DNA of 64,000 bases from positions 977 through 64,976 of the forward strand of contig JAZQAO010000017.1 in the NCBI GenBank assembly GCA_045545295.1, written 5' to 3'. This document shows positions 7,847 to 53,358 of this stretch, piece by piece. Position 1 is the stretch's first letter, and every line of letters begins with the position of its first letter. The notes beneath the pieces were generated by a model, which ran no database searches, was not told the DNA's origin, and saw only the letters and a program-made list of their open reading frames with translations. The position numbers and the translations under genes are program-made. The DNA is from Clostridia bacterium (GTDB taxonomy: Bacteria > Bacillota > Clostridia > UMGS1883).

Positions 7847-10128
7847 TTGCAAAACAGAAAATAAGCGCAATAGCAAAGGCTATAAATGTTCCCGGTAAGG
7901 AAATCGCTGCTATGCTTGGTGAAGTTGCCGGAATTACCAAAAGCTCAGCTGCTTCTCTTGATGTAGACGAAATGAGCATCGTTATGGAGTACTATACTCA
8001 GAAATTTGATGACGGTTCTACAATTGAAGAATACGTTAAAGCTTATCAGGAAAAAGTTGAAAAAGAAAAAGCTGCTGCAAAACCCAAAAAGGAAAAGAAA
8101 GCAGAGGAAGTTCTTCCTGAAATTACTGACGAGGAAATCACACAGGAAATCACTCCTCAGAAAAACCGTCGCTACGTTGACACAAGAACAAACGCTGTTG
8201 ACCTTGATGTTCAGTTGGCAAAAGAAAAAGCTGAAGAGCTTGCTCCTGAAATAAAAGACACAGAAACAACAAAACAGCGTATAAAGAAAAACAAAAACAA
8301 ACAGCAGCCACAGAAGAAGAATCAGCCTAAGCCTGAAGAAATGATTCAGAAGCCAAAAAAAGAAAAGGTTGAAAAACTTCACGTTGTTATTCCCGATACA
8401 ATCACCGTGGGCGACCTTGCACAGAAAATGAAAGTCGGTGCTACCGAAATCATCAAGCGCCTTATGCAGCTTGGCATTATGGCATCTGTGAATCAGGAAG
8501 TTGAATATGATGTAGCTGCACTTATTGCAGAAGATATGGGTGCAGATGTTGAGAGAGAAATCATCATCACAGAAGAAGACAAACTCTTTGGTGATGCTGA
8601 CGCTCCCGATGATGAAAAGGACCTTATCACCCGTCCTCCTGTTGTAGTTGTTATGGGTCACGTTGACCACGGTAAAACAAGTCTTCTTGATGCAATCCGC
8701 TCAACAAACGTTACTGCAAGCGAAGCAGGCGGTATTACACAGCACATCGGTGCTTATATGGTAAAAATCAACGACAATCCCATTGCATTTCTTGATACTC
8801 CCGGTCACGAAGCGTTCACCGCAATGCGTGCCCGCGGCGCACAGGTAACGGATATTGCAATCCTTGTTGTTGCAGCAGACGACGGTATTATGCCCCAGAC
8901 AATTGAGGCTATTAACCACGCTAAAGCTGCTGAGGTAAGTATTATCGTTGCTATTAACAAAATTGATAAAGAGGGTGCTAACCCCGACAGAGTTAAGCAG
9001 GAGCTTACAGAGCATGGTCTTGTTCCCGAAGAATGGGGCGGTGATGTTATCTGTGTTGAAGTAAGTGCAAAACAGCGTCAGAACATTGACGGACTTCTTG
9101 AAATGGTGCTTCTTACTGCGGAAATGAAGGAGCTTAAGGCTAACCCCAACCGCCGTGCAAAGGGTACTGTTATCGAGGCAAAGCTTGACAAAGGCCGCGG
9201 TCCTGTTGCAACAGTGCTTGTACAGAACGGTACACTCCGTCAGGGTGATATCATCGTTGCAGGTACTGCAGTAGGTCGTGTAAGAGCTATGCTTGACGAC
9301 AAGGGTAAGAAGATTAAAGAGGCTACTCCCTCTACACCCGTTGAGATTATCGGTCTCAGCGAAACTCCCGACGGTAACGATGTTTTCTATGCAGTTGAGG
9401 ATGAAAGAGCTGCCCGTCACGTTGTTGAGGCAAGAAAACAAAAGATTAAGGACGAAGCTAACAAGGCTAAGCAGAAGGTTAACCTTGAAGACCTCTTCAG
9501 CCAGATTCAGCAGGGCGATGTAAAAGACCTTAATATCATCGTTAAGGCTGACGTTCAGGGTAGTGTTGAGGCTGTTAAGCAGAGCCTTGAAAAGCTCTCT
9601 AACGAAGAAGTTCGTGTAAGAGTTATTCACGGTGCAGTTGGTGCTATTACAGAGAGCGACGTTACACTTGCAACTGCTTCAAACGCTATTATCGTTGGCT
9701 TTAACGTACGTCCTGACGTAGGCGGAAGAAATGCTGCCGAAATCAACAAGGTTGATATGCGTATGTACCGCGTAATTTATGATGCTATCGAAGAAATTGA
9801 AGCTGCTATGAAGGGTATGCTTGCCCCCACATTCCGTGAGGCTGTTATCGGTCATGCCGAAATCCGTCAGACCTTCAAAGTTAGCGGTGTAGGAACAATC
9901 GGTGGCTGCTATGTTACAGACGGTAAGATTCAGCGTAACTGCAGTGTTCGTATCGTTCGTGACGGTATTGTTATCCATGAAGGTGAGCTTGATTCACTTA
10001 AGCGTTTCAAGGATGACGTTAAGGAAGTTGCAAGCGGTTACGAATGCGGTATGGGCTTTGTAAGATTTAACGACATTAAAGAGGGCGACAATGTAGAGTG
10101 CTATATCATGGAAGAAGTAAAAAGATGA
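7843..10128 (+). CDS. infB: Translation initiation factor IF-2
   Basis: 761 aa with a K/E-rich N-terminal region, the G domain motifs [12 protein letters not shown] and DTPGHEAF, and an ATGA overlap with ylxQ. Confidence 0.97.
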
Positions 10129-41767: not shown

Positions 41768-41895
41768 AAACCTCCGTTAATTTAGCATTCTGATTGACTT
41801 TCTGTCATTTTTATTATACAATTACAGTACAATTATGTATTTAACAATATTTGCGTTTTTTTTATCATTTTGTCCGCGAGGAGGTTTTTTGGAAA

Positions 41896-42768
41896 ATGTT
41901 CGACACTCAAAAGGTACATAAGGAAATAGAAATAAAAGGCTTTAACAGCATATATTACTTTGAATTTGGAAAAGACTTCTCCCACGCACCCGAAAAACAT
42001 GATTTCTGGGAAATGGTTTATGTTGACAGCGGGCGGATAAACGCTATTACCAACGGCGTTGGTCTTACTCTTGAAGAGGGGCAGGCTATTTTTCACGAGC
42101 CGATGGAAGTTCACGCCCATATTTCTGACAACCGTGTGGCAAATAATATGCTTGTCATTTCTTTCACGGCAGATGGTGAAATGCTCAGCCACCTGAAAGG
42201 AAAAACCTTTAATCTTAATAAGACCGGCAAAATGCTTCTTTCACTGTTTATTGATGAGGCAAAAAATGCTCTCGGCACAGTGCCGTCTAATTATGAAAAT
42301 AAGGAAAACCTGAATTTTAGAAACGACGTATTCGGTGCTTCACAGCTCCTTAACTGCTATTTCACGGAGTTTATTATTCGCCTTATCCGAAGCGGAAGTG
42401 ATATGAGTAAAAAACTTGAAACAAGCAAAAAATCCCGTGACATTGCAAACAACTCTCTTAGTGAGCTTATATCAGATTATCTTAAAAGCAGTGTTTATAC
42501 GCCAATAACCCTTAAAGAATTATGCGAGCATTTTCTTATCGGAAAAACCCAGCTTTGCAAAATATTCCGTGAAAGTACAGGACAGAGCCCCATGGAATAT
42601 TATATGGAACAAAAGATATCCGAGGCAAAAAAGCTTCTCCGCGAGAAAAACCACACTGTAAGTCAGATTTCAGATATGCTTGGTTATTCATCCATACACA
42701 TTTTTTCCAGGGCATTTAAAAAAGCAGTGGGACTTTCTCCCACTGCTTATCAAAGACGCATAATATGA
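41896..42768 (+). CDS. AraC-family transcriptional regulator
   Basis: I prefer the start MFDTQKV, with GAGGAGG upstream. It has a cupin-like N-terminus and the C-terminal HTH GYSSIHIFSRAFKKAVGLSPTAYQ. It is divergent from the PIG-L operon. Confidence 0.8.
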   Translation: MFDTQKVHKEIEIKGFNSIYYFEFGKDFSHAPEKHDFWEMVYVDSGRINAITNGVGLTLEEGQAIFHEPMEVHAHISDNRVANNMLVISFTADGEMLSHLKGKTFNLNKTGKMLLSLFIDEAKNALGTVPSNYENKENLNFRNDVFGASQLLNCYFTEFIIRLIRSGSDMSKKLETSKKSRDIANNSLSELISDYLKSSVYTPITLKELCEHFLIGKTQLCKIFRESTGQSPMEYYMEQKISEAKKLLREKNHTVSQISDMLGYSSIHIFSRAFKKAVGLSPTAYQRRII

Positions 42769-42771
42769 CTA

Positions 42772-44217
42772 TTACGTATTTACGGAATAATCTTTTTTAA
42801 ATCCGTGTGCACCGAAAATTTGCCACCTGCCAACACCAAGTCTTTCAATTATTGCATTTCTTTCCTCTACGCATAATCCGGGGTCCGTGTCTACCGATGT
42901 CATAAGTATGGGTGCATACTTATTATATTTCGCTTGTTCTGCCGTCAATCCGTGCATATTGATATAAATATCACCTGTGATTGCAATATGCTTTGAATAG
43001 TCTATCAGTACAATCTCCCCGGGAAGATGTCCGCCTTTACCTTCATACACCTCAAAATGCAATTCACCAAAATCAAAGAAACCGATTTGTGTAAGGGGTT
43101 CTGCGGGATTTTCAATGTTATTCCACATAGCAGTCAGCTTTGCTGAATTTACCGCTTTGTATGAAGTCAGAATTTTGCAAATGTTTATATAAGGCTTGTG
43201 GAGGGGATTTTCTTCTCTGTATCCGTTTTTGCCTTCGTATTCATTTCTCAGGCAATTTACCGTTTTAGTGCTTCCAATTACTTTGTCAAATACCGGTAAC
43301 AGTCCGCAGTGGTCAACATCTGCGTGAGTTACAAGAATCGTCTTTTCCATAGTTTCAAACTCAGGAAGGATTCTTCTGAATATATCAAGCATTTCTTTGG
43401 CATAGCAAGCGTATCCGCTATCAACAAATAAGACCTTATCATTGCTTTTTATGATAATGGTATTACTTCCGCAGGGAGGCTCTATAAGAGTTATTTCCGT
43501 ATTATCGGTTACCTTGTGAGTGCTTATGCGGGGATTAAAGTTTTTTCCTTTCGAAGCGGCTAAAAGCTCTGCAAACTTACTGATACTGTCAAATGTACGA
43601 TAGGGTGACAGTCCCTTTTCGTCAAGGGTCTGCATCGCAAGATTAACAGAAGTCAGAAGTTCACGGCTTACCTCTTCTGAAAGTCCCATTGTCTGCGACA
43701 ATCCTGAAACATAAGTATTATAAAAGATACTGTTATCGTATACTTTTTCAGAACTGTTGTAATCTATAACACGAACCTTGCAAAGCTTTGCCGCTTCCTT
43801 CAGGAAGAGTGAAATCTTATCGTAATCCTCAACATACAAGCCCATTTTGAAATACTGATAATCTGTTCCGTTTTCCTGCGAGCTGATGTAGGAAATATTG
43901 AAATTAAATTCGTTTATAAGCTCAAGCACTCTGGTTACACTGCCCGGAACATCCGAAAGGCAGAATTCTATCAGAACAATGCTTGTTTTACTTGTACCTG
44001 TTTGCAGATAACCGATTTTCTGAAGCTCGGCATCTGCTTTTTTTAATTGTTCCTTTGTGCCCTCTGCATCAATAAACAAGGTGTGTGAATCAACCGCTTT
44101 GTTGTAGCTTACGCGGGTAATATTTACTCCCAATGCAGAAAAGCATTTACTTGCCTTCAAAAATGCACCGATATGATTAGGCATAGAAGTTACATAGGTT
44201 TTTTTCACATAAATCAC
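42772..44217 (-). CDS. ACT-ACT-MBL-fold fusion protein, function unknown
   Basis: 481 aa with two ACT-like units in residues 1-150 (MPNHIGAFLKASKCFSALGVNITRVS; LSDVPGSVTRVLELINEFNFNISYIS). The C-terminal MBL-like fold carries the variant metal motif THADVDHCG. GAGGTG lies 4 nt before the ATG and 24 nt after the upstream stop. Confidence 0.6.
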   Translation of the reverse strand: MIYVKKTYVTSMPNHIGAFLKASKCFSALGVNITRVSYNKAVDSHTLFIDAEGTKEQLKKADAELQKIGYLQTGTSKTSIVLIEFCLSDVPGSVTRVLELINEFNFNISYISSQENGTDYQYFKMGLYVEDYDKISLFLKEAAKLCKVRVIDYNSSEKVYDNSIFYNTYVSGLSQTMGLSEEVSRELLTSVNLAMQTLDEKGLSPYRTFDSISKFAELLAASKGKNFNPRISTHKVTDNTEITLIEPPCGSNTIIIKSNDKVLFVDSGYACYAKEMLDIFRRILPEFETMEKTILVTHADVDHCGLLPVFDKVIGSTKTVNCLRNEYEGKNGYREENPLHKPYINICKILTSYKAVNSAKLTAMWNNIENPAEPLTQIGFFDFGELHFEVYEGKGGHLPGEIVLIDYSKHIAITGDIYINMHGLTAEQAKYNKYAPILMTSVDTDPGLCVEERNAIIERLGVGRWQIFGAHGFKKDYSVNT

Positions 44218-44241
44218 CTCGTTTATATGCTTTGTATAGAA

Positions 44242-46542
44242 TTACTTGCCCATTTTCTCCATATCATTTTTGCGGATTTCAACACGTCTTACCTTACCGC
44301 TGATTGTTTTGGGAAGCTCATCAACAAACTCAACGATTCTCGGATATTTGTAAGGAGCAGTGTGAGTTTTTACATATTCCTGAATTTCTTTTTTGAGTTC
44401 GTCTGTTCCTTCTGTGCCTTTGACAAGAACTATGGTAGCTTTTACAATCTGACCGCGTACTTCATCAGGAACAGGTGTGATTGCACATTCAAGAACGTAA
44501 GGAAGCTCCATGATAACACTCTCTATTTCGAAAGGTCCGATACGGTAACCGGATGACTTGATAACATCGTCGATACGACCTACATACCAAAGATATCCGT
44601 CCTCATCCATTGTTGCCTGATCGCCTGTATGATAATATCCGTCATGCCATACTTCGTTTGTTTTTTCTTCATCAAGATAGTAGCCGATAAAGAGACCGCA
44701 AGGTATTTCGTCCTTTACACGGATACAGATTTCGCCTGTATCTCCGGTCTTGCACTCGTTTCCGTCAGGATCAAGGACAACAACATCGTAGAGAGGGGAA
44801 GGTCTTCCCATAGAACCGATTTTTGGTGTTGGGCCGACAAAGTTTGCGATAGAAAGTGTTGTTTCCGTCTGACCAAAGCCTTCCATGATTGTAAGTCCCG
44901 TTGCTTTTTTGAACTGATTAAATACTTCGGGGTTAAGTGCTTCCCCTGCGGTTGTAGCATATTCGATAGAAGAAAGGTCATACTTTGATAAATCTTCTTT
45001 AATAAAGAAACGGTACATTGTAGGCGGTGCACAGAAGGTTGTGATATGGTATTTTGCAAACATCGGCAAGATGTCCTCTGAATGGAAGCGGTCAAAGTCA
45101 TAAGTGAACTGTGCTGCTTCACAGAGCCATTGTCCGTAGAGCTTACCCCAAAGAGCCTTACCCCAGCCTGTATCTGAGATTGGAAAGTGAAGTCCGTCAG
45201 GATTTACATTGTGCCAATGCTTTGCAGTAGGATAATGACCGAGTGCATATTTGTATGAGTGTGTTGCGATTCTCGGATATCCTGTTGTACCTGATGTAAA
45301 GAGCATAAGCATCGGGTCGTTACCGCAGGGTGTATTCTCTGTCCGGTCAAAATGAGTGCTGAAGCGTTCCATTTCAACATTGAAATCGTGCCAGCCTTCT
45401 TTATTGCCGCCAACTAAAACTTTAACCATACCGGGATAGTTTGCTGCGGCTTTTTCTGCTTCAGCTGACACATCGCCGTCAGCAGTACATACAACCGCTT
45501 TTACTCTTGCTGCTTTGTATCTGTAATCAAAATCGTGTTCTACAAGCTGATTTGTTGCAGGGATTGCGATAGCGCCGATTTTATGGAGTGCAAGCATTGA
45601 AAACCAGAACTGATAATGACGCTTTAATACAAGCATTACCGTATCGCCCTTTTTGATACCCAGTGATTCAAAATAATTTGCAGTTTTGTTGGAATACTTT
45701 TTCATATCGCTGAAAGTAAAGCGTCTGTCGGTCTTATCATTTGCAACCCACATCATAGCCAGTTTTTCGGGATTTTTTTCTGCGATAGCATCCACACAGT
45801 CAAATGCAAAATTGAATGTATCTGCGTTTTTGAATTTGATACCATTGAAAACTCCGTTTTCATCATAGGATGATTCAATAAATTTATCTGCAACTGTTTC
45901 TGACTTTTTCTTTTCAGAAGCTGCCTTAGCCGCAATCATAGGTGCTTCGGGATATTCCTCACTAACAGTTCCGTCCTGGGGATTTAACACAACTGCATGG
46001 AACTCACATCCGCCTTCTGACACTGCAATCATACCGTGAGGAATGAGGCTGTTATAGAAAATAGAGTCTCCTTCGTGAAGTATATCTACGTGATTTCCAA
46101 TCTGAACCTTGAGAGAGCCTTTAACGATAACATCAAATTCCTGACCGTTATGTGAGTTTAACTGCATCGGTGCATTTTGCTCCTCTTCAATATAGGGAAA
46201 TTTAACAAGGAAGGGTTCAGCAAGCTTTTCTCTGAATTTAGGAGCAAGGTTATTATACTCTACACCGTGCTTCTTTACGATTTTAAGTCCCTCGCCTTTT
46301 CTTGTGATTGCAAAGGAGGTAAGTGTTGTGCTTGTTCCTTCAAGCAAATCAACAACCTCTACACCGCAAGCCTTTGCACACTTGTAGATAAATGTGAAGC
46401 TGAAGTCTGTTTCCCCCATCTCCAAAACCTTGTAATCTTCTACTGATACACCTGTAAGCTTTGCAAGCTCCTCCTGTGTAAAACCTTTTGCCTCGCGCAG
46501 GTCTTTGATTCTGCCTGCAACTTCTTTCAAACTGTAATCCAT
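44242..46542 (-). CDS. XRE-HTH + cupin + AMP-forming (medium-chain type) acyl-CoA synthetase fusion
   Basis: 766 aa. Residues 1-65 form an HTH (KGFTQEELAKLTGVSVEDYKVLEMG). Residues ~110-190 form a cupin (GQEFDVIVKGSLKVQIGN...HEGDSIFY..IPHG). The remainder carries adenylate-forming motifs (FTSGTTGYPR, YHTGD, SGKVRR). Confidence 0.8.
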   Translation of the reverse strand: MDYSLKEVAGRIKDLREAKGFTQEELAKLTGVSVEDYKVLEMGETDFSFTFIYKCAKACGVEVVDLLEGTSTTLTSFAITRKGEGLKIVKKHGVEYNNLAPKFREKLAEPFLVKFPYIEEEQNAPMQLNSHNGQEFDVIVKGSLKVQIGNHVDILHEGDSIFYNSLIPHGMIAVSEGGCEFHAVVLNPQDGTVSEEYPEAPMIAAKAASEKKKSETVADKFIESSYDENGVFNGIKFKNADTFNFAFDCVDAIAEKNPEKLAMMWVANDKTDRRFTFSDMKKYSNKTANYFESLGIKKGDTVMLVLKRHYQFWFSMLALHKIGAIAIPATNQLVEHDFDYRYKAARVKAVVCTADGDVSAEAEKAAANYPGMVKVLVGGNKEGWHDFNVEMERFSTHFDRTENTPCGNDPMLMLFTSGTTGYPRIATHSYKYALGHYPTAKHWHNVNPDGLHFPISDTGWGKALWGKLYGQWLCEAAQFTYDFDRFHSEDILPMFAKYHITTFCAPPTMYRFFIKEDLSKYDLSSIEYATTAGEALNPEVFNQFKKATGLTIMEGFGQTETTLSIANFVGPTPKIGSMGRPSPLYDVVVLDPDGNECKTGDTGEICIRVKDEIPCGLFIGYYLDEEKTNEVWHDGYYHTGDQATMDEDGYLWYVGRIDDVIKSSGYRIGPFEIESVIMELPYVLECAITPVPDEVRGQIVKATIVLVKGTEGTDELKKEIQEYVKTHTAPYKYPRIVEFVDELPKTISGKVRRVEIRKNDMEKMGK

Positions 46543-46599
46543 TGTTTTTGTCTCCTTTCAATTTTTGACAAATTTGATATTTGGTTACAAATCTGAATA

Positions 46600-46890
46600 A
46601 AACAAAAAAACTCGCCTCAAAGATAACTTTGAGACGAGTTATAATAACCCGCGGTACCACTCAAATTACGGAAATACAAAATCTCCGTCACTTACCGAGC
46701 TCCAACAAGCCCTTTGCCTTTACGCAGCATTACGGAAGGAATCTACTCACATTTTGCTTTCGGTCCTCCGACTCAGAGGTGATAAGTCATTGGAAAGTCT
46801 CACCATTGCCTCGCACCAACCGGCAACTCTCTCCAGGCTCCACAATCCGACCGTCCTCGTCACAGTCATTTTTGTGATATTCAAATTTTA
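46600..46890 (-). promoter_or_regulatory. T-box riboswitch leader with a terminator/antiterminator
   Basis: On the minus strand: the GA/K-turn motif; the AGAGAG bulge and GGUUGGUGCGA distal loop (46834-46806); the T-box sequence AAUUUGAGUGGUACCGCGGG (46667-46646); and the terminator CUCGUCUCAAAG-UUAU-CUUUGAGGCGAG + U7 (46640-46604). Confidence 0.85.
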
Positions 46891-46896
46891 ATATGG

Positions 46897-46925
46897 ATTA
46901 TACGCTCACAATTTTAATTTGTCAA
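46897..46925 (-). promoter_or_regulatory. Consensus sigma-A promoter driving the T-box leader
   Basis: On the minus strand: TTGACA (46925-46920), a 17-nt spacer, then TATAAT (46902-46897). Confidence 0.75.
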
Positions 46926-50399: not shown

Positions 50400-50493
50400 A
50401 AAAGAAGCGTGCCGCTTCACCCACATCGCGTCCAAACTTAACTTAAAACCCACAAATATTGCTCGCGATAAAAAACGCAATTTCCTATACGAT
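50398..50493 (+). repeat. Family-2 repeat, copy C (divergent middle section)
   Basis: It starts in the transporter stop codon: AAAAAAGAAGCGTGCCGCTTCACCCACATCGCG…ACGCAATTTCCTATACGAT. Confidence 0.7.
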
Positions 50494-50495
50494 AA

Positions 50496-50535
50496 AATAA
50501 ATCCGGTGCAGTTAATTAACTGCACCGGATTTATT
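50496..50535. terminator. Bidirectional intrinsic terminator between the transporter gene and uvrA
   Basis: AAATAAATCCGGTGCAGTTAAT / TAACTGCACCGGATTTATTT is a near-perfect palindrome. Confidence 0.8.
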
Positions 50536-53358
50536 TTACAACAACTTTTTAAGGAACATACCTGTGTAAGATTTCGGATTTTCTGCAATTTCTTCGGGAG
50601 TACCGCATCCGACTACCGTACCGCCTCCGTCTCCGCCTTCAGGACCAAGGTCTATAATATGGTCTGCAGTTTTGATAACATCAAGGTTATGTTCAATTAC
50701 AAGAACGCTATTACCCTCATCAACAAAGCGGTTAAGAACATCAATCAGCCTGTGAACATCAGCACTGTGAAGTCCTGTTGTAGGCTCATCAAGGATATAG
50801 ATAGTTTTTCCCGTTGACCGCTTTGAAAGCTCCGTTGCAAGCTTTACTCTCTGTGCTTCACCGCCTGAAAGAGTAGTTGACGACTGACCTAGCTTGATAT
50901 ATCCAAGACCTACATCCTTTATCGTCTGAAGCTTATTCTTGATTTTGGGAATAGCATCAAAAAACTCAACGGCTTCGTCAATCGTCATATCAAGAACTTC
51001 AAATATGTTTTTGCCTTTATAGCGGACTTCAAGGGTTTCACGGTTGTAGCGTTTTCCTTTACACACCTCGCAGGGAACATACACATCAGGCAAAAAGTGC
51101 ATTTCGATTTTGAGGATACCGTCGCCGCTGCAGGCTTCACACCTTCCGCCACGCACATTGAAGCTGAAACGTCCTTGGTTGTAGCCACGGGATTTTGCTT
51201 CAGGCGTCATTGCAAAAAGCTCACGGATGTCGTTGAACACACCTGTATAAGTCGCAGGATTCGAGCGTGGAGTTCTGCCGATGGGTGACTGGTCAATATT
51301 TATAACTTTGTCAAGGTTATCAATACCCTCAAACCCCTTATGTTTACCCGGAACGGCTTTACTGCGGTTGAGCTTATATGCAAGGTGCTTGTACACAACT
51401 TCATTTACAAGTGAGCTTTTTCCCGAACCTGACACACCTGTTACGGCAACAAATTTTCCCAGCGGAATTTCCACATCTATATTTTTAAGGTTATTTTCCG
51501 CTGCCTTAATTACCTTTATACTCTTGCCGTTACCAGGACGTCTTTCTGATGGAACTTCGATTTTCTTCCTTCCGCTTAAGTAGTCGCCCGTAAGTGAGCT
51601 TTCGCAGGCAATAATTTCCTCTACTGTGCCCTGTGCAATAATTTCACCACCGTGAATACCTGCACCCGGGCCTACGTCTACAATGTAATCCGCTTCACGC
51701 ATTGTATCTTCGTCGTGCTCCACAACAATGAGTGTATTTCCCAAATCACGTAATGACTTAAGTGCATCTATCAGCTTGTTATTATCACGTTGATGCAGAC
51801 CGATGCTTGGCTCATCAAGTATATAAAGAACGCCCACAAGCCCTGAGCCTATCTGAGTTGCTAGACGAATTCTCTGTGCTTCACCGCCCGAAAGAGTGCC
51901 TGCAGAACGTGACATCGTAAGATAATCAAGCCCTACATTATTCAGGAATCCAATTCTTGCACGAATTTCCTTAAGAATTTCTTCCGCTATCATCTGTTCC
52001 TTTTCGGGAAGATTTATCTCGCGGAAGAACTTGTCCGCTTTTGATACAGAAAGTCCGCATACCTCATCAATATTTTTGCCGTCAATGGTTACGGCAAGAC
52101 TTTCACGACGAAGCCTTTTTCCTTTACATTCGTCACAGGGAATTTCACGCATTAAGCCTTCAATATCCCATTTTGACCATTCACTTGTTGTTTCGTCATA
52201 GCGTCGCTGAAGATTGTTCACAATGCCTTCAAAGCGTGTATTATATACAGAAACCCCTCGCTTGCCTTTGTATTCGATTTCAATTTCCTCGTCACCTGTT
52301 CCGAAAAGGATTACCTCTATTGCTTTGTCGGGAAGATTTTTTACAGGAACGTCAAGCCTGAAGTTGTACTTTTTAGCAAGAGCACGGAAAATGGCGTTAG
52401 CGTTACTGTCCTCTTTATCGGGGGCACGCCAGCCGCTTACGTGAAAAGCACCCTCAAGCACGGAAAGCTCGTCACTTACAAGCACAAGTGACGGGTCCAC
52501 TCTTTTAAGCAGTCCTATACCGCTGCACTTGGGACAGGCACCAAGAGGATTATTGAAAGAAAACATTCTTGGAGAAAGCTCGTCAAGGCTTATACCGCAG
52601 TCGTCACAGGCATAGTTCTGACTGAAAATCATTTCTTCGTCACCGTTCAGTATCATTACGATACCTTCGCAAAGGTGGAGGGTAATTTCAATAGAATCTG
52701 CAAGACGTTTTCTGATATCGGGTTTCACGACAAGTCTGTCAACGACGATTTCCACATAGTGCTTTTTCTGCTTGTCAAGCTCAATCACTTCTGAAAGGTC
52801 ATAGATAATTCCGTCAACCCTTACACGGACATAACCGCTTTTCTTTGCATTTTCAAAAATCTTCTGATGTTCACCCTTTTTACCTCTTACCATAGGGGCA
52901 AGAATCTGCACACGGCTACCCTCGGGAAAAGCCATTACCTGCTCCACAATCTGGTCTAAGGTCTGCTGGGTAATTCTTTTTCCGCATTTGGGACAGTGAG
53001 GCACGCCCACTCTTGCATACAAAAGTCTTAAATAGTCATATATTTCCGTTACCGTACCAACGGTCGAACGGGGATTTTTATTTGTGGTTTTCTGATCAAT
53101 ACTGATTGCGGGACTTAATCCTTCAATATAATCAACCTCAGGCTTTTCCATCTGACCGAGAAACATTCTGGCATAGGAAGAGAGTGATTCCACATACCTT
53201 CTCTGCCCTTCGGCATAGATTGTATCAAAAGCAAGGGAAGTCTTTCCCGAGCCTGAAACGCCCGTGAATACGATGAATTTATCTCTTGGAATTGTAAGGT
53301 CAACATTTTTCAGGTTGTTTTCACGTGCACCCTGAATTACTATTTCATTCTTTTTCAT
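50536..53358 (-). CDS. uvrA: Excinuclease ABC subunit A
   Basis: 940 aa with two ABC ATPase modules ([10 protein letters not shown] appears twice) and zinc-finger cysteines. Confidence 0.97.

What the first reader, a model, noticed from the sequence alone, without database searches (positions are those of the whole stretch)
42772..46925. T-box riboswitch controls an acyl-CoA synthetase + ACT-domain operon rather than an aaRS, biosynthesis or transporter gene
Seen: on the minus strand a consensus promoter (TTGACA-17-TATAAT, 46925-46897) is followed by a ~290-nt leader with T-box hallmarks. These are a 5' GA/K-turn motif (GAC-UGU-GA-C-GAGG paired with CCUC-U-GA-GUC), an AGAGAG bulge and GGUUGGUGCGA distal loop, the T-box sequence AAUUUGAGUGGUACCGCGGG (46667-46646), and an intrinsic terminator with U7 (46640-46604). 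The terminator lies 60 nt before the SD/ATG at 46542. The second gene follows after 24 nt with its own SD, so the two look like one operon.

Known: T-boxes sense uncharged tRNA and nearly always precede aminoacyl-tRNA synthetase, amino-acid biosynthesis or amino-acid transport genes. ACT domains are amino-acid-binding modules. Rumen and gut anaerobes are known physiologically to make Ile/Leu/Val (and Phe/Trp) by reductive carboxylation of the corresponding short acids after CoA activation.

Inference: this operon may be a starvation-induced ligase system for branched short-chain acids (2-methylbutyrate, isovalerate, isobutyrate). That would be a regulatory link I do not recognise as described.
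Basis: partly seen in the sequence, partly recalled or inferred. Interest (0 to 1): 0.78.

Follow-up and report, generated by a model that had tools for sequence, protein, structure and literature searches.

The report
Isoleucine T-box controlling a branched-acid CoA ligase
A tRNA-sensing RNA switch that detects isoleucine shortage turns on an enzyme that most likely activates the branched short-chain acid 2-methylbutyrate, which points to the genes and regulation behind the long-known ability of rumen and gut anaerobes to build branched-chain amino acids from such acids.

Summary
A perfect sigma-70 promoter, a full-length T-box (RF00230, 92.7 bits against a gathering score of 93, E 6e-21) and an intrinsic terminator precede a two-gene operon on the minus strand. 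The specifier is AUC (Ile).

Gene 1 is more than an acyl-CoA synthetase. It is a complete XRE-HTH + cupin regulator module fused to a ligase that is 55% identical to MacsMa, whose preferred substrate is 2-methylbutyrate. Gene 2 is a tandem-ACT + metallo-beta-lactamase protein.

In 80 species-representative genomes the fusion ligase carries a T-box in 71 of 77 testable loci. The specifier is AUC in 66 leaders and GUA (Val) in 3.

In 14 species an Ile-T-box ligase is followed by a Val T-box, with a complete second ligase on the contig in 11. Val-type ligases form their own clade and differ by one fixed pocket-position change (Gly461 to Ala).

In 13 species the ligases are followed by a VorB-type 2-oxoacid:ferredoxin oxidoreductase. 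A branched-chain aminotransferase follows that in the five contigs that extend far enough.

The ACT-MBL gene is only an occasional partner. I found no prior description.

The parts
46897..46925 (-). Sigma-70 promoter, TTGACA-17 nt-TATAAT
   Evidence: 12/12 consensus match. A promoter in the same position is seen in orthologous leaders.
46627..46872 (-). T-box leader (Stem I with K-turn and specifier loop, Stems II and III, antiterminator)
   Evidence: RF00230 at 92.7 bits, E 6e-21, model positions 1-219. 38 of 53 consensus pairs covary in 43 orthologues.
46781..46783 (-). Specifier codon AUC (Ile), followed by A46780 and the CCUC strand of the helix that closes the specifier loop
   Evidence: Register from the Rfam alignment. 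AUC is invariant in 66 of 69 leaders while both flanks vary, and the other 3 leaders read GUA at the same place.
46648..46667 (-). Conserved T-box sequence AAUUUGAGUGGUACCGCGGG. The UGGU bulge (46659-46656) would pair with an NCCA end whose discriminator base is A73.
   Evidence: The core UGAGUGGUACCGCG is identical in 70 related loci.
46604..46640 (-). Intrinsic terminator. Its 5' strand is also the 3' strand of the antiterminator.
   Evidence: 14-bp stem with 6 GC pairs followed by a T-run. The shared strand is visible in the Rfam alignment. Conserved and covarying in orthologues.
46588..46612 (-). 3' arm of a clade-specific long-range complementarity. It pairs with 46868-46890, the first bases of the transcript.
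   Evidence: duplexfold dG -13.8 kcal/mol, z -4.3. The pairing is kept through U.G wobble changes and one change of both arms among close relatives, and is absent in distant clades.
44242..46542 (-). Gene 1, 766 aa. Domains: HTH_3 (residues 12-65), Cupin_2 (128-184), AMP-binding (252-622), AMP-binding_C (672-750). Predicted 2-methylbutyrate-CoA ligase fused to an XRE-cupin regulator module.
   Evidence: Pfam. NCBIfam best hit MbcS. 665 bits and 54.8% identity to MacsMa / 3ETC. N-terminal module matches 1Y9Q across HTH and cupin.
45160..45162 (-). Codon of Gly461 (motif DTGW-G-KALWGK), the candidate specificity determinant
   Evidence: Gly in 62/62 Ile-leader ligases and Ala in 12/12 Val-leader ligases. 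Aligns with Val310 of E. coli Acs.
42772..44208 (-). Gene 2, 478 aa. Two ACT-like units (about residues 2-64 and 76-150), a helical linker, and a metallo-beta-lactamase-fold domain (248-417) with a variant motif HADVDH.
   Evidence: Pfam ACT 30.9 bits and Lactamase_B 33 bits. Secondary structure from the AF2 model. Start inferred from 478-aa homologues and the SD.
42716..42748 (-). Intrinsic terminator that closes the operon. It overlaps the 3' end of the convergent AraC-family gene (41851-42768, + strand).
   Evidence: 11-bp stem with 6 GC pairs followed by a T-run. AraC annotation.

Best explanation
A transcription-attenuating T-box riboswitch specific for tRNA-Ile (specifier AUC, UGGU bulge for discriminator A73) gates a two-gene operon.

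When isoleucine is scarce, uncharged tRNA-Ile should stabilise the antiterminator and RNA polymerase should read through into gene 1. Gene 1 encodes a MacsMa/MbcS-type short branched-chain acyl-CoA synthetase that most likely converts exogenous 2-methylbutyrate to 2-methylbutyryl-CoA.

In this bacterial group that thioester is then reductively carboxylated by a VorB-type 2-oxoacid:ferredoxin oxidoreductase. The product is transaminated by IlvE to give isoleucine. A paralogous ligase behind a Val (GUA) T-box does the same with isobutyrate for valine.

Shown here: the T-box, its specifier, its conservation and covariation, the family relationships of the ligase, the Ile/Val paralogue split, and the gene linkage to VorB and IlvE.

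Inferred: the substrates, the direction of flux, and induction on starvation.

Unresolved: the roles of the fused HTH-cupin module and of the co-transcribed ACT-MBL protein. My guesses are a second sensing or allosteric layer for the former, and an amino-acid-gated metallo-enzyme acting on the pathway's thioester or adenylate for the latter.
For: T-box:
- RF00230 at E 6e-21 over the full model.
- Promoter and terminator present.
- 38 of 53 pairs covary.

Specificity:
- AUC in 66 of 69 leaders with variable flanks, GUA in 3.
- In the Val leaders the +1 frame would read UAG or UAA, which fixes the register.
- UGGU is present in all leaders.

Family-wide linkage:
- The T-box core lies 86-238 nt upstream of the fusion ligase in 70 of 77 loci, 71 after re-anchoring L067.
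- It is also present in the most distant fusion cluster, at 42% identity.
- Fusion-less relatives lack it.

Enzyme:
- 54.8% identity and 665 bits to MacsMa, whose preferred substrate is 2-methylbutyrate.
- Best NCBIfam model is MbcS.
- The MacsMa pocket Trp259 and the Trp414-to-Gly replacement are both conserved.

Paralogue logic:
- 14 loci carry an Ile T-box and ligase followed by a Val T-box. A complete second ligase is on the contig in 11 of them.
- The 12 full-length Val-type ligases (those 11 plus L064) are monophyletic and differ by Gly461Ala at the position that aligns with Acs pocket residue Val310.

Pathway linkage:
- VorB scores 557 bits against a cutoff of 399, and BCAT scores 499 against 307.
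- A ferredoxin-type delta subunit is present, and the only convincing terminator lies after ilvE.
- The VOR genes recur in 13 of 80 loci.
Against: - There are no biochemical or expression data for any member of this fusion family.
- The window holds no VOR or IlvE gene, so the pathway is inferred from relatives for this organism.
- The ligase scores well below the MbcS equivalog cutoff (453 against 850).
- MacsMa adenylates C3-C8 acids, so sequence alone does not settle the substrate.
- Six loci have the same fusion without a T-box.
- VOR and IlvE are reversible and also serve catabolism and lipid-primer formation.
- That Acs Val310 lines the acyl pocket rests on my memory of Gulick 2003 and Ingram-Smith 2006. 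The papers were not available.
- The 80 loci are the best-scoring of at least 590, so they are not a random sample.
Confidence: 0.7

Rival explanations
1. The ligase mainly supplies branched acyl-CoA primers for anteiso and iso membrane fatty acids, as MbcS does in S. aureus. Inducing it on Ile starvation would spare isoleucine from being degraded to 2-methylbutyryl-CoA, rather than making isoleucine.
For: - Best NCBIfam match is MbcS.
- S. aureus mbcS is derepressed when CodY senses low BCAA, and the authors propose exactly this sparing logic (PMC13584741).
- The window has no VOR or IlvE next to the ligase.
- From my own knowledge, rumen cocci incorporate branched acids into both lipids and amino acids.
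Against: - In 13 species the T-box ligases are followed by VorB-type oxidoreductase genes, and by a branched-chain aminotransferase where the contig extends far enough. In L065 these lie in one apparent transcription unit with the ligases. Priming fatty acid synthesis from an acyl-CoA needs neither enzyme.
- A T-box reports tRNA charging, which is the demand of protein synthesis.
- The two roles are not exclusive.
Confidence: 0.15
2. The Ile-type ligase activates propionate. Propionyl-CoA is reductively carboxylated to 2-oxobutyrate, which enters the ordinary ilv pathway to isoleucine.
For: - MacsMa adenylates propionate.
- From my own knowledge, propionate to 2-oxobutyrate is a known alternative Ile route in anaerobes.
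- Underground variants of this route exist in E. coli (PMC7476758, listed).
- An Ile specifier fits this route as well.
Against: - The closest characterised enzyme completes the CoA-ligation step best with 2-methylbutyrate and handles many other acyl-adenylates poorly.
- A sister paralogue sits behind a Val T-box, and valine cannot come from propionate.
- The paralogues differ by a single methyl-sized change at position 461, which fits C5 against C4 branched acids.
- The linked oxidoreductase is VorB-type.
Confidence: 0.07
3. Gene 1 is primarily a ligand-controlled transcription factor (BirA-like logic). The adenylating domain would make or sense an acyl-adenylate or acyl-CoA that controls DNA binding by the HTH-cupin module, and CoA-ester supply would be secondary.
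For: - A complete XRE-HTH + cupin regulator scaffold is fused in all 80 loci and in the 42%-identity cluster.
- Three of the four positions that separate Ile-type from Val-type proteins lie in this module: F47L, K54R and K106R.
- Six loci rely on a plain promoter without a T-box.
Against: - All catalytic motifs of the ligase are intact, and it is 55% identical to a working enzyme.
- No operator was found. The repeat flanking the leader behaves as an RNA helix, with wobble-compensated changes, and the motif is not enriched in the window.
- The recognition helix is unusually acidic (VSVEDYKVLEMGE).
- DNA binding is untested.
Confidence: 0.06
4. The T-box resemblance is a chance match or a decayed relic with no regulatory role.
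For: The score is 0.3 bit under Rfam's gathering score. The 5' side of the specifier loop is shortened and lacks the usual AGUA.
Against: - E 6e-21 over the full-length model.
- Intact antiterminator/terminator switch.
- The same architecture is conserved, with covariation, in 70 species.
- The specifier switches coherently between paralogues.
Confidence: 0.01

Closest known systems
T-box leaders (Rfam RF00230) of ileS, ilv-leu and brnQ type genes in Firmicutes
   Same: Same RNA family and the same predicted mechanism. The Stem I specifier pairs with the tRNA anticodon, UGGN pairs with the uncharged NCCA end, and an antiterminator competes with a terminator. AUC is a usual Ile specifier.
   Different: The controlled genes are not an aminoacyl-tRNA synthetase, a classical ilv/leu enzyme or a transporter. 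They are a short-chain acyl-CoA ligase fused to a regulator module, an ACT-MBL protein and, in relatives, VOR and IlvE. The open-access 2008 regulon survey never mentions CoA, acyl, ferredoxin or oxidoreductase. The 5' side of the specifier loop is shortened, which drops the score just under the gathering score.
MacsMa, the medium-chain acyl-CoA synthetase of Methanosarcina acetivorans (PDB 3ETC)
   Same: 54.8% identity over 529 residues. Gly replaces the Acs pocket Trp414, and the alternate pocket Trp259 is conserved. The preferred substrate of MacsMa is 2-methylbutyrate.
   Different: MacsMa has no HTH-cupin extension. It is archaeal, its physiological role is unknown, and no T-box is known for it.
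MbcS, the methylbutyryl-CoA synthetase of Staphylococcus aureus
   Same: It is the best-scoring curated family. It activates 2-methylbutyrate and isobutyrate, and its expression rises when BCAA sufficiency signalling through CodY is lost.
   Different: The score is far below the equivalog cutoff (453 against 850). MbcS serves fatty-acid primer supply, has no fusion, and is regulated indirectly through CodY rather than by a T-box. It is not linked to VOR or IlvE.
Reductive carboxylation of branched-chain volatile fatty acids to Ile, Val and Leu in rumen bacteria (Allison, Bryant and Robinson, 1958-1969; recalled from my own knowledge)
   Same: The predicted chemistry is identical: acid, then acyl-CoA, then 2-oxoacid, then amino acid. 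The carriers include Ruminococcus flavefaciens (L080), a classic organism that requires branched-chain VFAs.
   Different: That work was physiology and isotope tracing. As far as I could find, the ligase genes and their regulation were not assigned.
PuuR / 1Y9Q-type XRE-HTH + cupin regulators, and BirA as a precedent for an adenylating enzyme fused to a DNA-binding domain
   Same: Residues 1-190 match both domains of 1Y9Q. As in BirA, an adenylate-forming enzyme carries an N-terminal HTH.
   Different: The similarity is weak (E 3e-5). No operator was found, and DNA binding and the cupin ligand are unknown. BirA belongs to a different enzyme superfamily. The comparison is an analogy, not homology.

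Membership tests
T-box leader (RF00230) | Covariance-model score at or above Rfam's gathering score (93 bits) | tested here: not met
   92.7 bits, 0.3 bit short, at E 6e-21. Orthologous leaders of the same gene score 94.7, 102 and 106.5 bits. The shortfall comes from a 4-nt deletion in the 5' side of the specifier loop.
T-box leader (RF00230) | Stem I with K-turn, specifier loop, AGAGA motif and distal-loop motif | tested here: met
   All are aligned to the model. AGAGA is invariant, and the Stem I helices covary in 43 leaders.
T-box leader (RF00230) | Conserved T-box sequence with a UGGN bulge inside an antiterminator that shares a strand with a terminator | tested here: met
   UGAG-UGGUACC-GCGGG...CUCGU-CUCA. 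The strand CUCGUCUCA also forms the 5' arm of the terminator at 46640-46609.
T-box leader (RF00230) | tRNA-dependent read-through that responds to the charging state | not testable with these tools
   Needs in vitro transcription or in vivo reporters.
ANL-superfamily short/medium-chain acyl-CoA synthetase (MacsMa / MbcS type) | AMP-binding and AMP-binding_C domains with core motifs | tested here: met
   PF00501 at 196.7 bits and PF13193 at 78 bits. TSGTTGYPR, GYYHTGD and the C-terminal SGK are visible.
ANL-superfamily short/medium-chain acyl-CoA synthetase (MacsMa / MbcS type) | NCBIfam MbcS equivalog cutoff (850 bits) | tested here: not met
   453 bits. It is related to MbcS but is not an MbcS orthologue.
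ANL-superfamily short/medium-chain acyl-CoA synthetase (MacsMa / MbcS type) | Enlarged acyl pocket: Gly in place of Acs Trp414, and the alternate pocket Trp (MacsMa Trp259) | tested here: met
   Acs W414 aligns with window G557. AKHW443 aligns with MacsMa AKYW. The rule is taken from PMC10455477.
ANL-superfamily short/medium-chain acyl-CoA synthetase (MacsMa / MbcS type) | Activity on 2-methylbutyrate or isobutyrate | not testable with these tools
   Inferred from homology, from the T-box specifiers and from the Gly461/Ala split.
ACT domain proteins | Pfam ACT above its gathering score, with a beta-alpha-beta-beta-alpha-beta fold | tested here: met
   PF01842 at 30.9 bits against a cutoff of 27, residues 82-144. 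The AF2 secondary structure shows two such units, but the model has low confidence.
Metallo-beta-lactamase-fold hydrolases | Canonical HxHxDH metal-binding motif | tested here: not met
   PF00753 at 33 bits against a cutoff of 22.7, but the motif reads H-A-D-V-D-H, invariant in 23 homologues. The nearest PDB sequences are flavodiiron-protein MBL domains (HxExDH) at E 0.003. The fold family applies, but the chemistry is open.
XRE-HTH + cupin transcription regulators (PuuR-like) | HTH_3 and Cupin_2 domains in that order | tested here: met
   PF01381 at 40.9 bits and PF07883 at 34.1 bits. Both domains align to 1Y9Q. The PuuR equivalog is far below its cutoff (20 against 211).
XRE-HTH + cupin transcription regulators (PuuR-like) | Sequence-specific DNA binding at an operator | tested here: inconclusive
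   The only conserved repeat around the leader behaves as an RNA helix, and the motif is not enriched in the window.
Branched-chain acid to BCAA reductive-carboxylation pathway (ligase + VOR + IlvE) | 2-oxoisovalerate-type ferredoxin oxidoreductase and branched-chain aminotransferase genetically linked to the ligase | tested here: met
   Met in relatives: VorB at 557 bits against 399, BCAT at 499 against 307, a delta ferredoxin, and VOR genes in 13 of 80 loci. Not met inside this 64-kb window. The rest of this genome is not available.

The most novel reading that the evidence does not exclude
Gut and rumen Oscillospirales carry a modular, amino-acid-addressed salvage regulon. Separate Ile, Val and probably Leu T-boxes would each gate a dedicated short branched-chain acid CoA ligase that feeds a shared VOR-IlvE reductive-carboxylation line. 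One pocket residue (Gly461/Ala) would set C5 against C4 specificity.

In this reading the ligases are also bifunctional. Their fused XRE-cupin module would act as a second sensor, either DNA-binding or allosteric. The ACT-MBL protein would be a third, amino-acid-gated component of the same Ile regulon.
Probability: 0.3. Interest if true: 0.85.

Novelty: new variant of a known kind. Interest (0 to 1): 0.72.

Why it matters
Cellulolytic ruminococci and many gut Clostridia have been known since about 1960 to need, or profit from, isobutyrate, 2-methylbutyrate and isovalerate. "Isoacid" supplements are fed to dairy cattle for that reason. The genes that activate these acids, and the signal that switches the pathway on, have remained largely unassigned.

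This locus family offers candidate genes for the whole route: ligase, four-subunit VOR and IlvE. It also gives a precise regulatory logic, in which charging of the cognate tRNA is read by a T-box whose specifier names the amino acid. And it gives a testable specificity determinant, Gly461/Ala.

It extends the T-box regulon to acyl-CoA ligases and ferredoxin oxidoreductases. It shows that T-box specifiers can be used to annotate the substrates of paralogous acid ligases in uncultured gut bacteria. Finally, it raises a new question about adenylating enzymes fused to a complete HTH-cupin regulator.

Tried and rejected
- **Default Rfam scan.** The gathering-threshold scan of the window found nothing, because the T-box is 0.3 bit under the cutoff. 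The E-value mode recovered it.
- **Operon hypothesis for the ACT-MBL gene.** tblastn shows it next to the ligase in only about 6 of 80 loci. I therefore dropped the idea that ligase + ACT protein is the conserved unit. It does, however, stay under the same Ile T-box in L081, where the ligase gene was deleted.
- **AlphaFold model of gene 2.** Built from a 23-sequence alignment at 85-97% identity, it reached mean pLDDT 52.5. That is too poor for fold search, which I did not run.
- **DNA-operator hypothesis for the HTH.** The motif TATTCARATTTG is not enriched in the window (25 matches against 29 expected). The two copies flanking the leader covary as an RNA helix and occur only in the closest clade. 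I rejected this as evidence for an operator.
- **Literature.** Ten full-text searches found no paper linking a T-box with an acyl-CoA synthetase, VOR or branched-chain VFAs. Vitreschak 2008, Shah 2009 and Meng 2010 are not held, so prior mention there cannot be excluded. The Acs pocket assignment of Val310 remains recalled knowledge (one search found nothing).
- **Script problems.** Two of my ORF filters were too strict and had to be redone (then 74). One script timed out (then 61).
- **Fusion-less relatives.** The nearest ones (P0245) have no T-box.

Full report
**1. The observation**

On the minus strand a 12/12 sigma-70 promoter (46925-46897) is followed by a leader that matches the Rfam T-box model over its whole length (46872-46627). 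The match scores 92.7 bits. E is 6e-21 for the leader alone and 6e-19 for the whole 64-kb window.

The score is 0.3 bit below Rfam's gathering score. That is why the default scan reported nothing, and why an Rfam-based annotation pipeline would miss it. The shortfall comes from a shortened 5' side of the specifier loop.

The downstream operon has two genes and ends at a second strong terminator (42748-42722), opposite a convergent AraC-family gene. There are small corrections. The T-box core ends at 46648. Gene 2 probably starts at the GTG at 44208, 33 nt after the gene 1 stop and behind a GAGGTG Shine-Dalgarno.

**2. What the genes are**

It joins an XRE-type HTH (residues 12-65) and a cupin (128-184) to an AMP-binding acyl-CoA synthetase (252-750). 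The N-terminal 190 residues align over both domains with a stand-alone HTH-cupin regulator, 1Y9Q.

The ligase module scores 665 bits against PDB 3ETC and is 54.8% identical to it. 3ETC is MacsMa of Methanosarcina acetivorans, whose preferred substrate is 2-methylbutyrate (PMC10455477). The best curated family is MbcS, the 2-methylbutyryl-CoA synthetase of S. aureus, though the score is far below its equivalog cutoff.

Gene 2 (478 aa) has two ACT-like units and a metallo-beta-lactamase-fold domain. Its metal motif is the variant HADVDH. It has no close solved relative, and the AlphaFold model was too poor to use.

**3. The specifier**

In the Rfam register the specifier is AUC (46783-46781), followed by A and the CCUC strand of the helix that closes the specifier loop.

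I fetched 80 loci, one per GTDB species, that encode the full-length fusion. They were the best 80 of at least 590 hits. They come from Oscillospiraceae, Acutalibacteraceae and Ruminococcus, mostly gut and rumen MAGs, but include cultured R. flavefaciens SAb67.

The T-box core UGAGUGGUACCGCG lies 86-238 nt upstream of the ligase in 70 of the 77 loci that have upstream sequence, or 71 after re-anchoring L067. In 69 readable leaders the triplet in the specifier register is AUC 66 times and GUA 3 times. The two preceding bases and the following base vary freely.

In the Val leaders the +1 frame would read UAG or UAA, which fixes the register. Every leader has UGGU, which fits the A73 discriminator of tRNA-Ile and tRNA-Val and not the G73 of tRNA-Ser (discriminator identities are from my own knowledge).

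An alignment of 43 leaders gives 53 consensus pairs, 38 of them with compensatory changes, spread over Stem I, the distal stem, Stems II and III and the terminator.

Even the most distant fusion cluster, at 42% identity, sits behind an Ile T-box. Fusion-less relatives do not. Six loci have the fusion behind a plain promoter or another gene.

**4. Paralogues addressed to different amino acids**

Fourteen loci carry an Ile T-box and ligase followed immediately by a Val T-box (GUA, once GUC). A complete second ligase lies on the contig in eleven of them. In L055 and L060 the contig ends first, and in L069 the copy is fragmentary. Rfam alignments confirm the registers.

In an alignment of 74 T-box-led ligases, the 12 full-length Val-type enzymes (those eleven plus L064) form one clade. 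They are 64-72% identical to any Ile-type enzyme.

One catalytic-domain column separates the groups perfectly. Residue 461 is Gly in 62 of 62 Ile-type enzymes and Ala in 12 of 12 Val-type enzymes. Aligned with E. coli Acs, this position is Val310 in the DVGW-V-T-GH stretch, and Acs Trp414 aligns with Gly557.

The Trp414-to-Gly rule for larger substrates is documented. That Val310 lines the acetate pocket is my recollection of Gulick 2003 and Ingram-Smith 2006, which I could not verify. One more methyl group on the enzyme for one less carbon on the substrate is what a 2-methylbutyrate/isobutyrate pair would predict.

**5. Link to the rest of the pathway**

In L065 the Val-T-box ligase is followed after about 10 nt by a ParA/CbiA-like P-loop gene and then by:

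- a 74-aa 2x[4Fe-4S] ferredoxin (delta subunit);
- VorB (NF005507, 557 bits against a cutoff of 399);
- a TPP-binding beta subunit;
- a gamma subunit;
- a branched-chain aminotransferase (NF009897, 499 bits against a cutoff of 307).

The only convincing terminator follows ilvE. One 12/12 promoter-like site inside the ParA-like gene leaves room for an internal start.

The VOR genes follow the ligase(s) in 13 of 80 loci. IlvE follows them in the five contigs that reach far enough. The window itself has none of these genes, and the rest of its genome is not available.

**6. The ACT-MBL gene**

It is adjacent to the ligase in only about 6 of 80 loci, and is absent next to ligases 92-94% identical to the window's. 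So the conserved unit is T-box + ligase, not ligase + ACT protein.

It is not a random passenger, however. It recurs with the ligase in distant lineages (L077, at 62% ligase identity). In L081-L084 the same promoter, Ile T-box, SD and first five ligase codons are followed by a deletion of the ligase and then directly by the ACT-MBL gene. It therefore belongs to the Ile T-box regulon in several lineages.

Its chemistry is open. MBL-fold acyl-CoA thioesterases exist (recalled from my own knowledge), but the HxDxDH motif is closer to the carboxylate-rich sites of flavodiiron proteins.

**7. Mechanism and rivals**

The best-supported reading runs as follows. Ile starvation leaves tRNA-Ile uncharged. 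The antiterminator forms and the ligase is made. The ligase converts 2-methylbutyrate to 2-methylbutyryl-CoA. VOR reductively carboxylates this to 2-oxo-3-methylvalerate, and IlvE converts that to Ile. A parallel Val/isobutyrate module does the same for valine.

The main rival is primer supply for branched-chain fatty acids with sparing of Ile. S. aureus MbcS is a precedent, being derepressed in a codY mutant. This rival is not exclusive, but it does not explain the co-transcribed VOR and IlvE. Propionate activation is a weaker rival.

The fused HTH-cupin module remains unexplained. Three of the four Ile/Val-discriminating positions lie in it. I found no operator.

**8. Novelty**

The RNA is an ordinary member of a known family. 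The target class and the paralogue-specific addressing are, as far as I could find, not described. The open-access T-box regulon survey never mentions CoA, acyl, ferredoxin or oxidoreductase, and nine further searches found nothing relevant.

The caveat is that the other major survey (Vitreschak 2008) and much of the rumen literature are not in the library. I rate the finding as a new variant of a known kind, with interest 0.72.

Noticed in passing
window 46868-46890 and 46588-46612 (minus strand): About 20 nt at the very 5' end of the transcript (AAAUUUGAAUAUCACAAAAA) are complementary to the terminator U-tract plus the next 13 nt (UUUUUGUUUUAUUCAGAUUU). The pairing is kept in the clade of close relatives through U.G wobble changes and one change of both arms (L024), and is absent in distant clades. 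It could close the whole leader in read-through transcripts, for processing or stability.
   Followed up: partly
L005 1619-5597; also L001, L007, L009, L011, L028, L032, L045, L050, L076: A Leu (CUC) T-box drives a short LeuA-like gene (HMGL-like + LeuA_dimer, 462 aa, below the IPMS cutoffs). It overlaps an 831-aa fusion of a xylose-isomerase-like TIM barrel with an AMP-binding ligase, and the pair sits immediately upstream of the Ile-T-box ligase. This may be the leucine/isovalerate arm of the same system. It is not present in the window.
   Followed up: partly
L066 8334-8582: A second T-box (73 bits) sits directly before the ParA-like and VOR genes, where other species have the Val-type ligase. 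In the normal register its specifier reads GCA followed by U. This may be a decaying Val T-box left after loss of the ligase, or a change of specificity.
   Followed up: no
L081 4430-5010 (also L082-L084): The promoter, Ile T-box, SD and first five codons (MDYSL) of the ligase are retained. The ligase ORF is then deleted and the ACT-MBL gene follows about 180 nt later. This is a natural deletion that puts ACT-MBL directly under the Ile T-box.
   Followed up: yes
window 42772-44208, protein residues 295-300: The metallo-beta-lactamase domain has H-A-D-V-D-H in place of the canonical HxHxDH motif, invariant in 23 homologues. The nearest PDB sequences are flavodiiron-protein domains (HxExDH). The metal and the chemistry may not be those of a zinc hydrolase.
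   Followed up: partly
L065 8285-8956 and 13 further loci: A small ParA/CbiA-like P-loop protein (223 aa, no NCBIfam match) consistently lies between the ligase(s) and the VOR delta subunit. Its role is unknown. L065 also has a 12/12 promoter-like site inside this gene (8550-8577).
   Followed up: no
L087 946-7486: In the most distant fusion cluster (42% identity) an Ile T-box (65 bits) precedes two tandem HTH-cupin ligases with only 73 nt between them. A class I/II aminotransferase follows, instead of VOR and IlvE.
   Followed up: partly
L073, L074, L075, L035, L049: The same HTH-cupin ligase fusion sits behind a consensus promoter and a short leader with no T-box. This includes rumen Ruminococcus MAGs. 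These may be the cases in which the fused HTH matters for regulation.
   Followed up: no
L088 2910-2987 and 3919-3996; L089 likewise: Two Gut-1 RNA (RF01706) matches just under the gathering score (49.3 and 43.8 bits against 50) flank a DUF6199 gene in inverted orientation, next to a fusion-less MacsMa-like ligase.
   Followed up: no
window 50486-50545 (minus strand): A sub-threshold match to the microRNA family mir-2767 (34.9 bits against 69, E 0.004) lies at the 3' end of uvrA. It is almost certainly a hairpin or terminator, not a miRNA.
   Followed up: no
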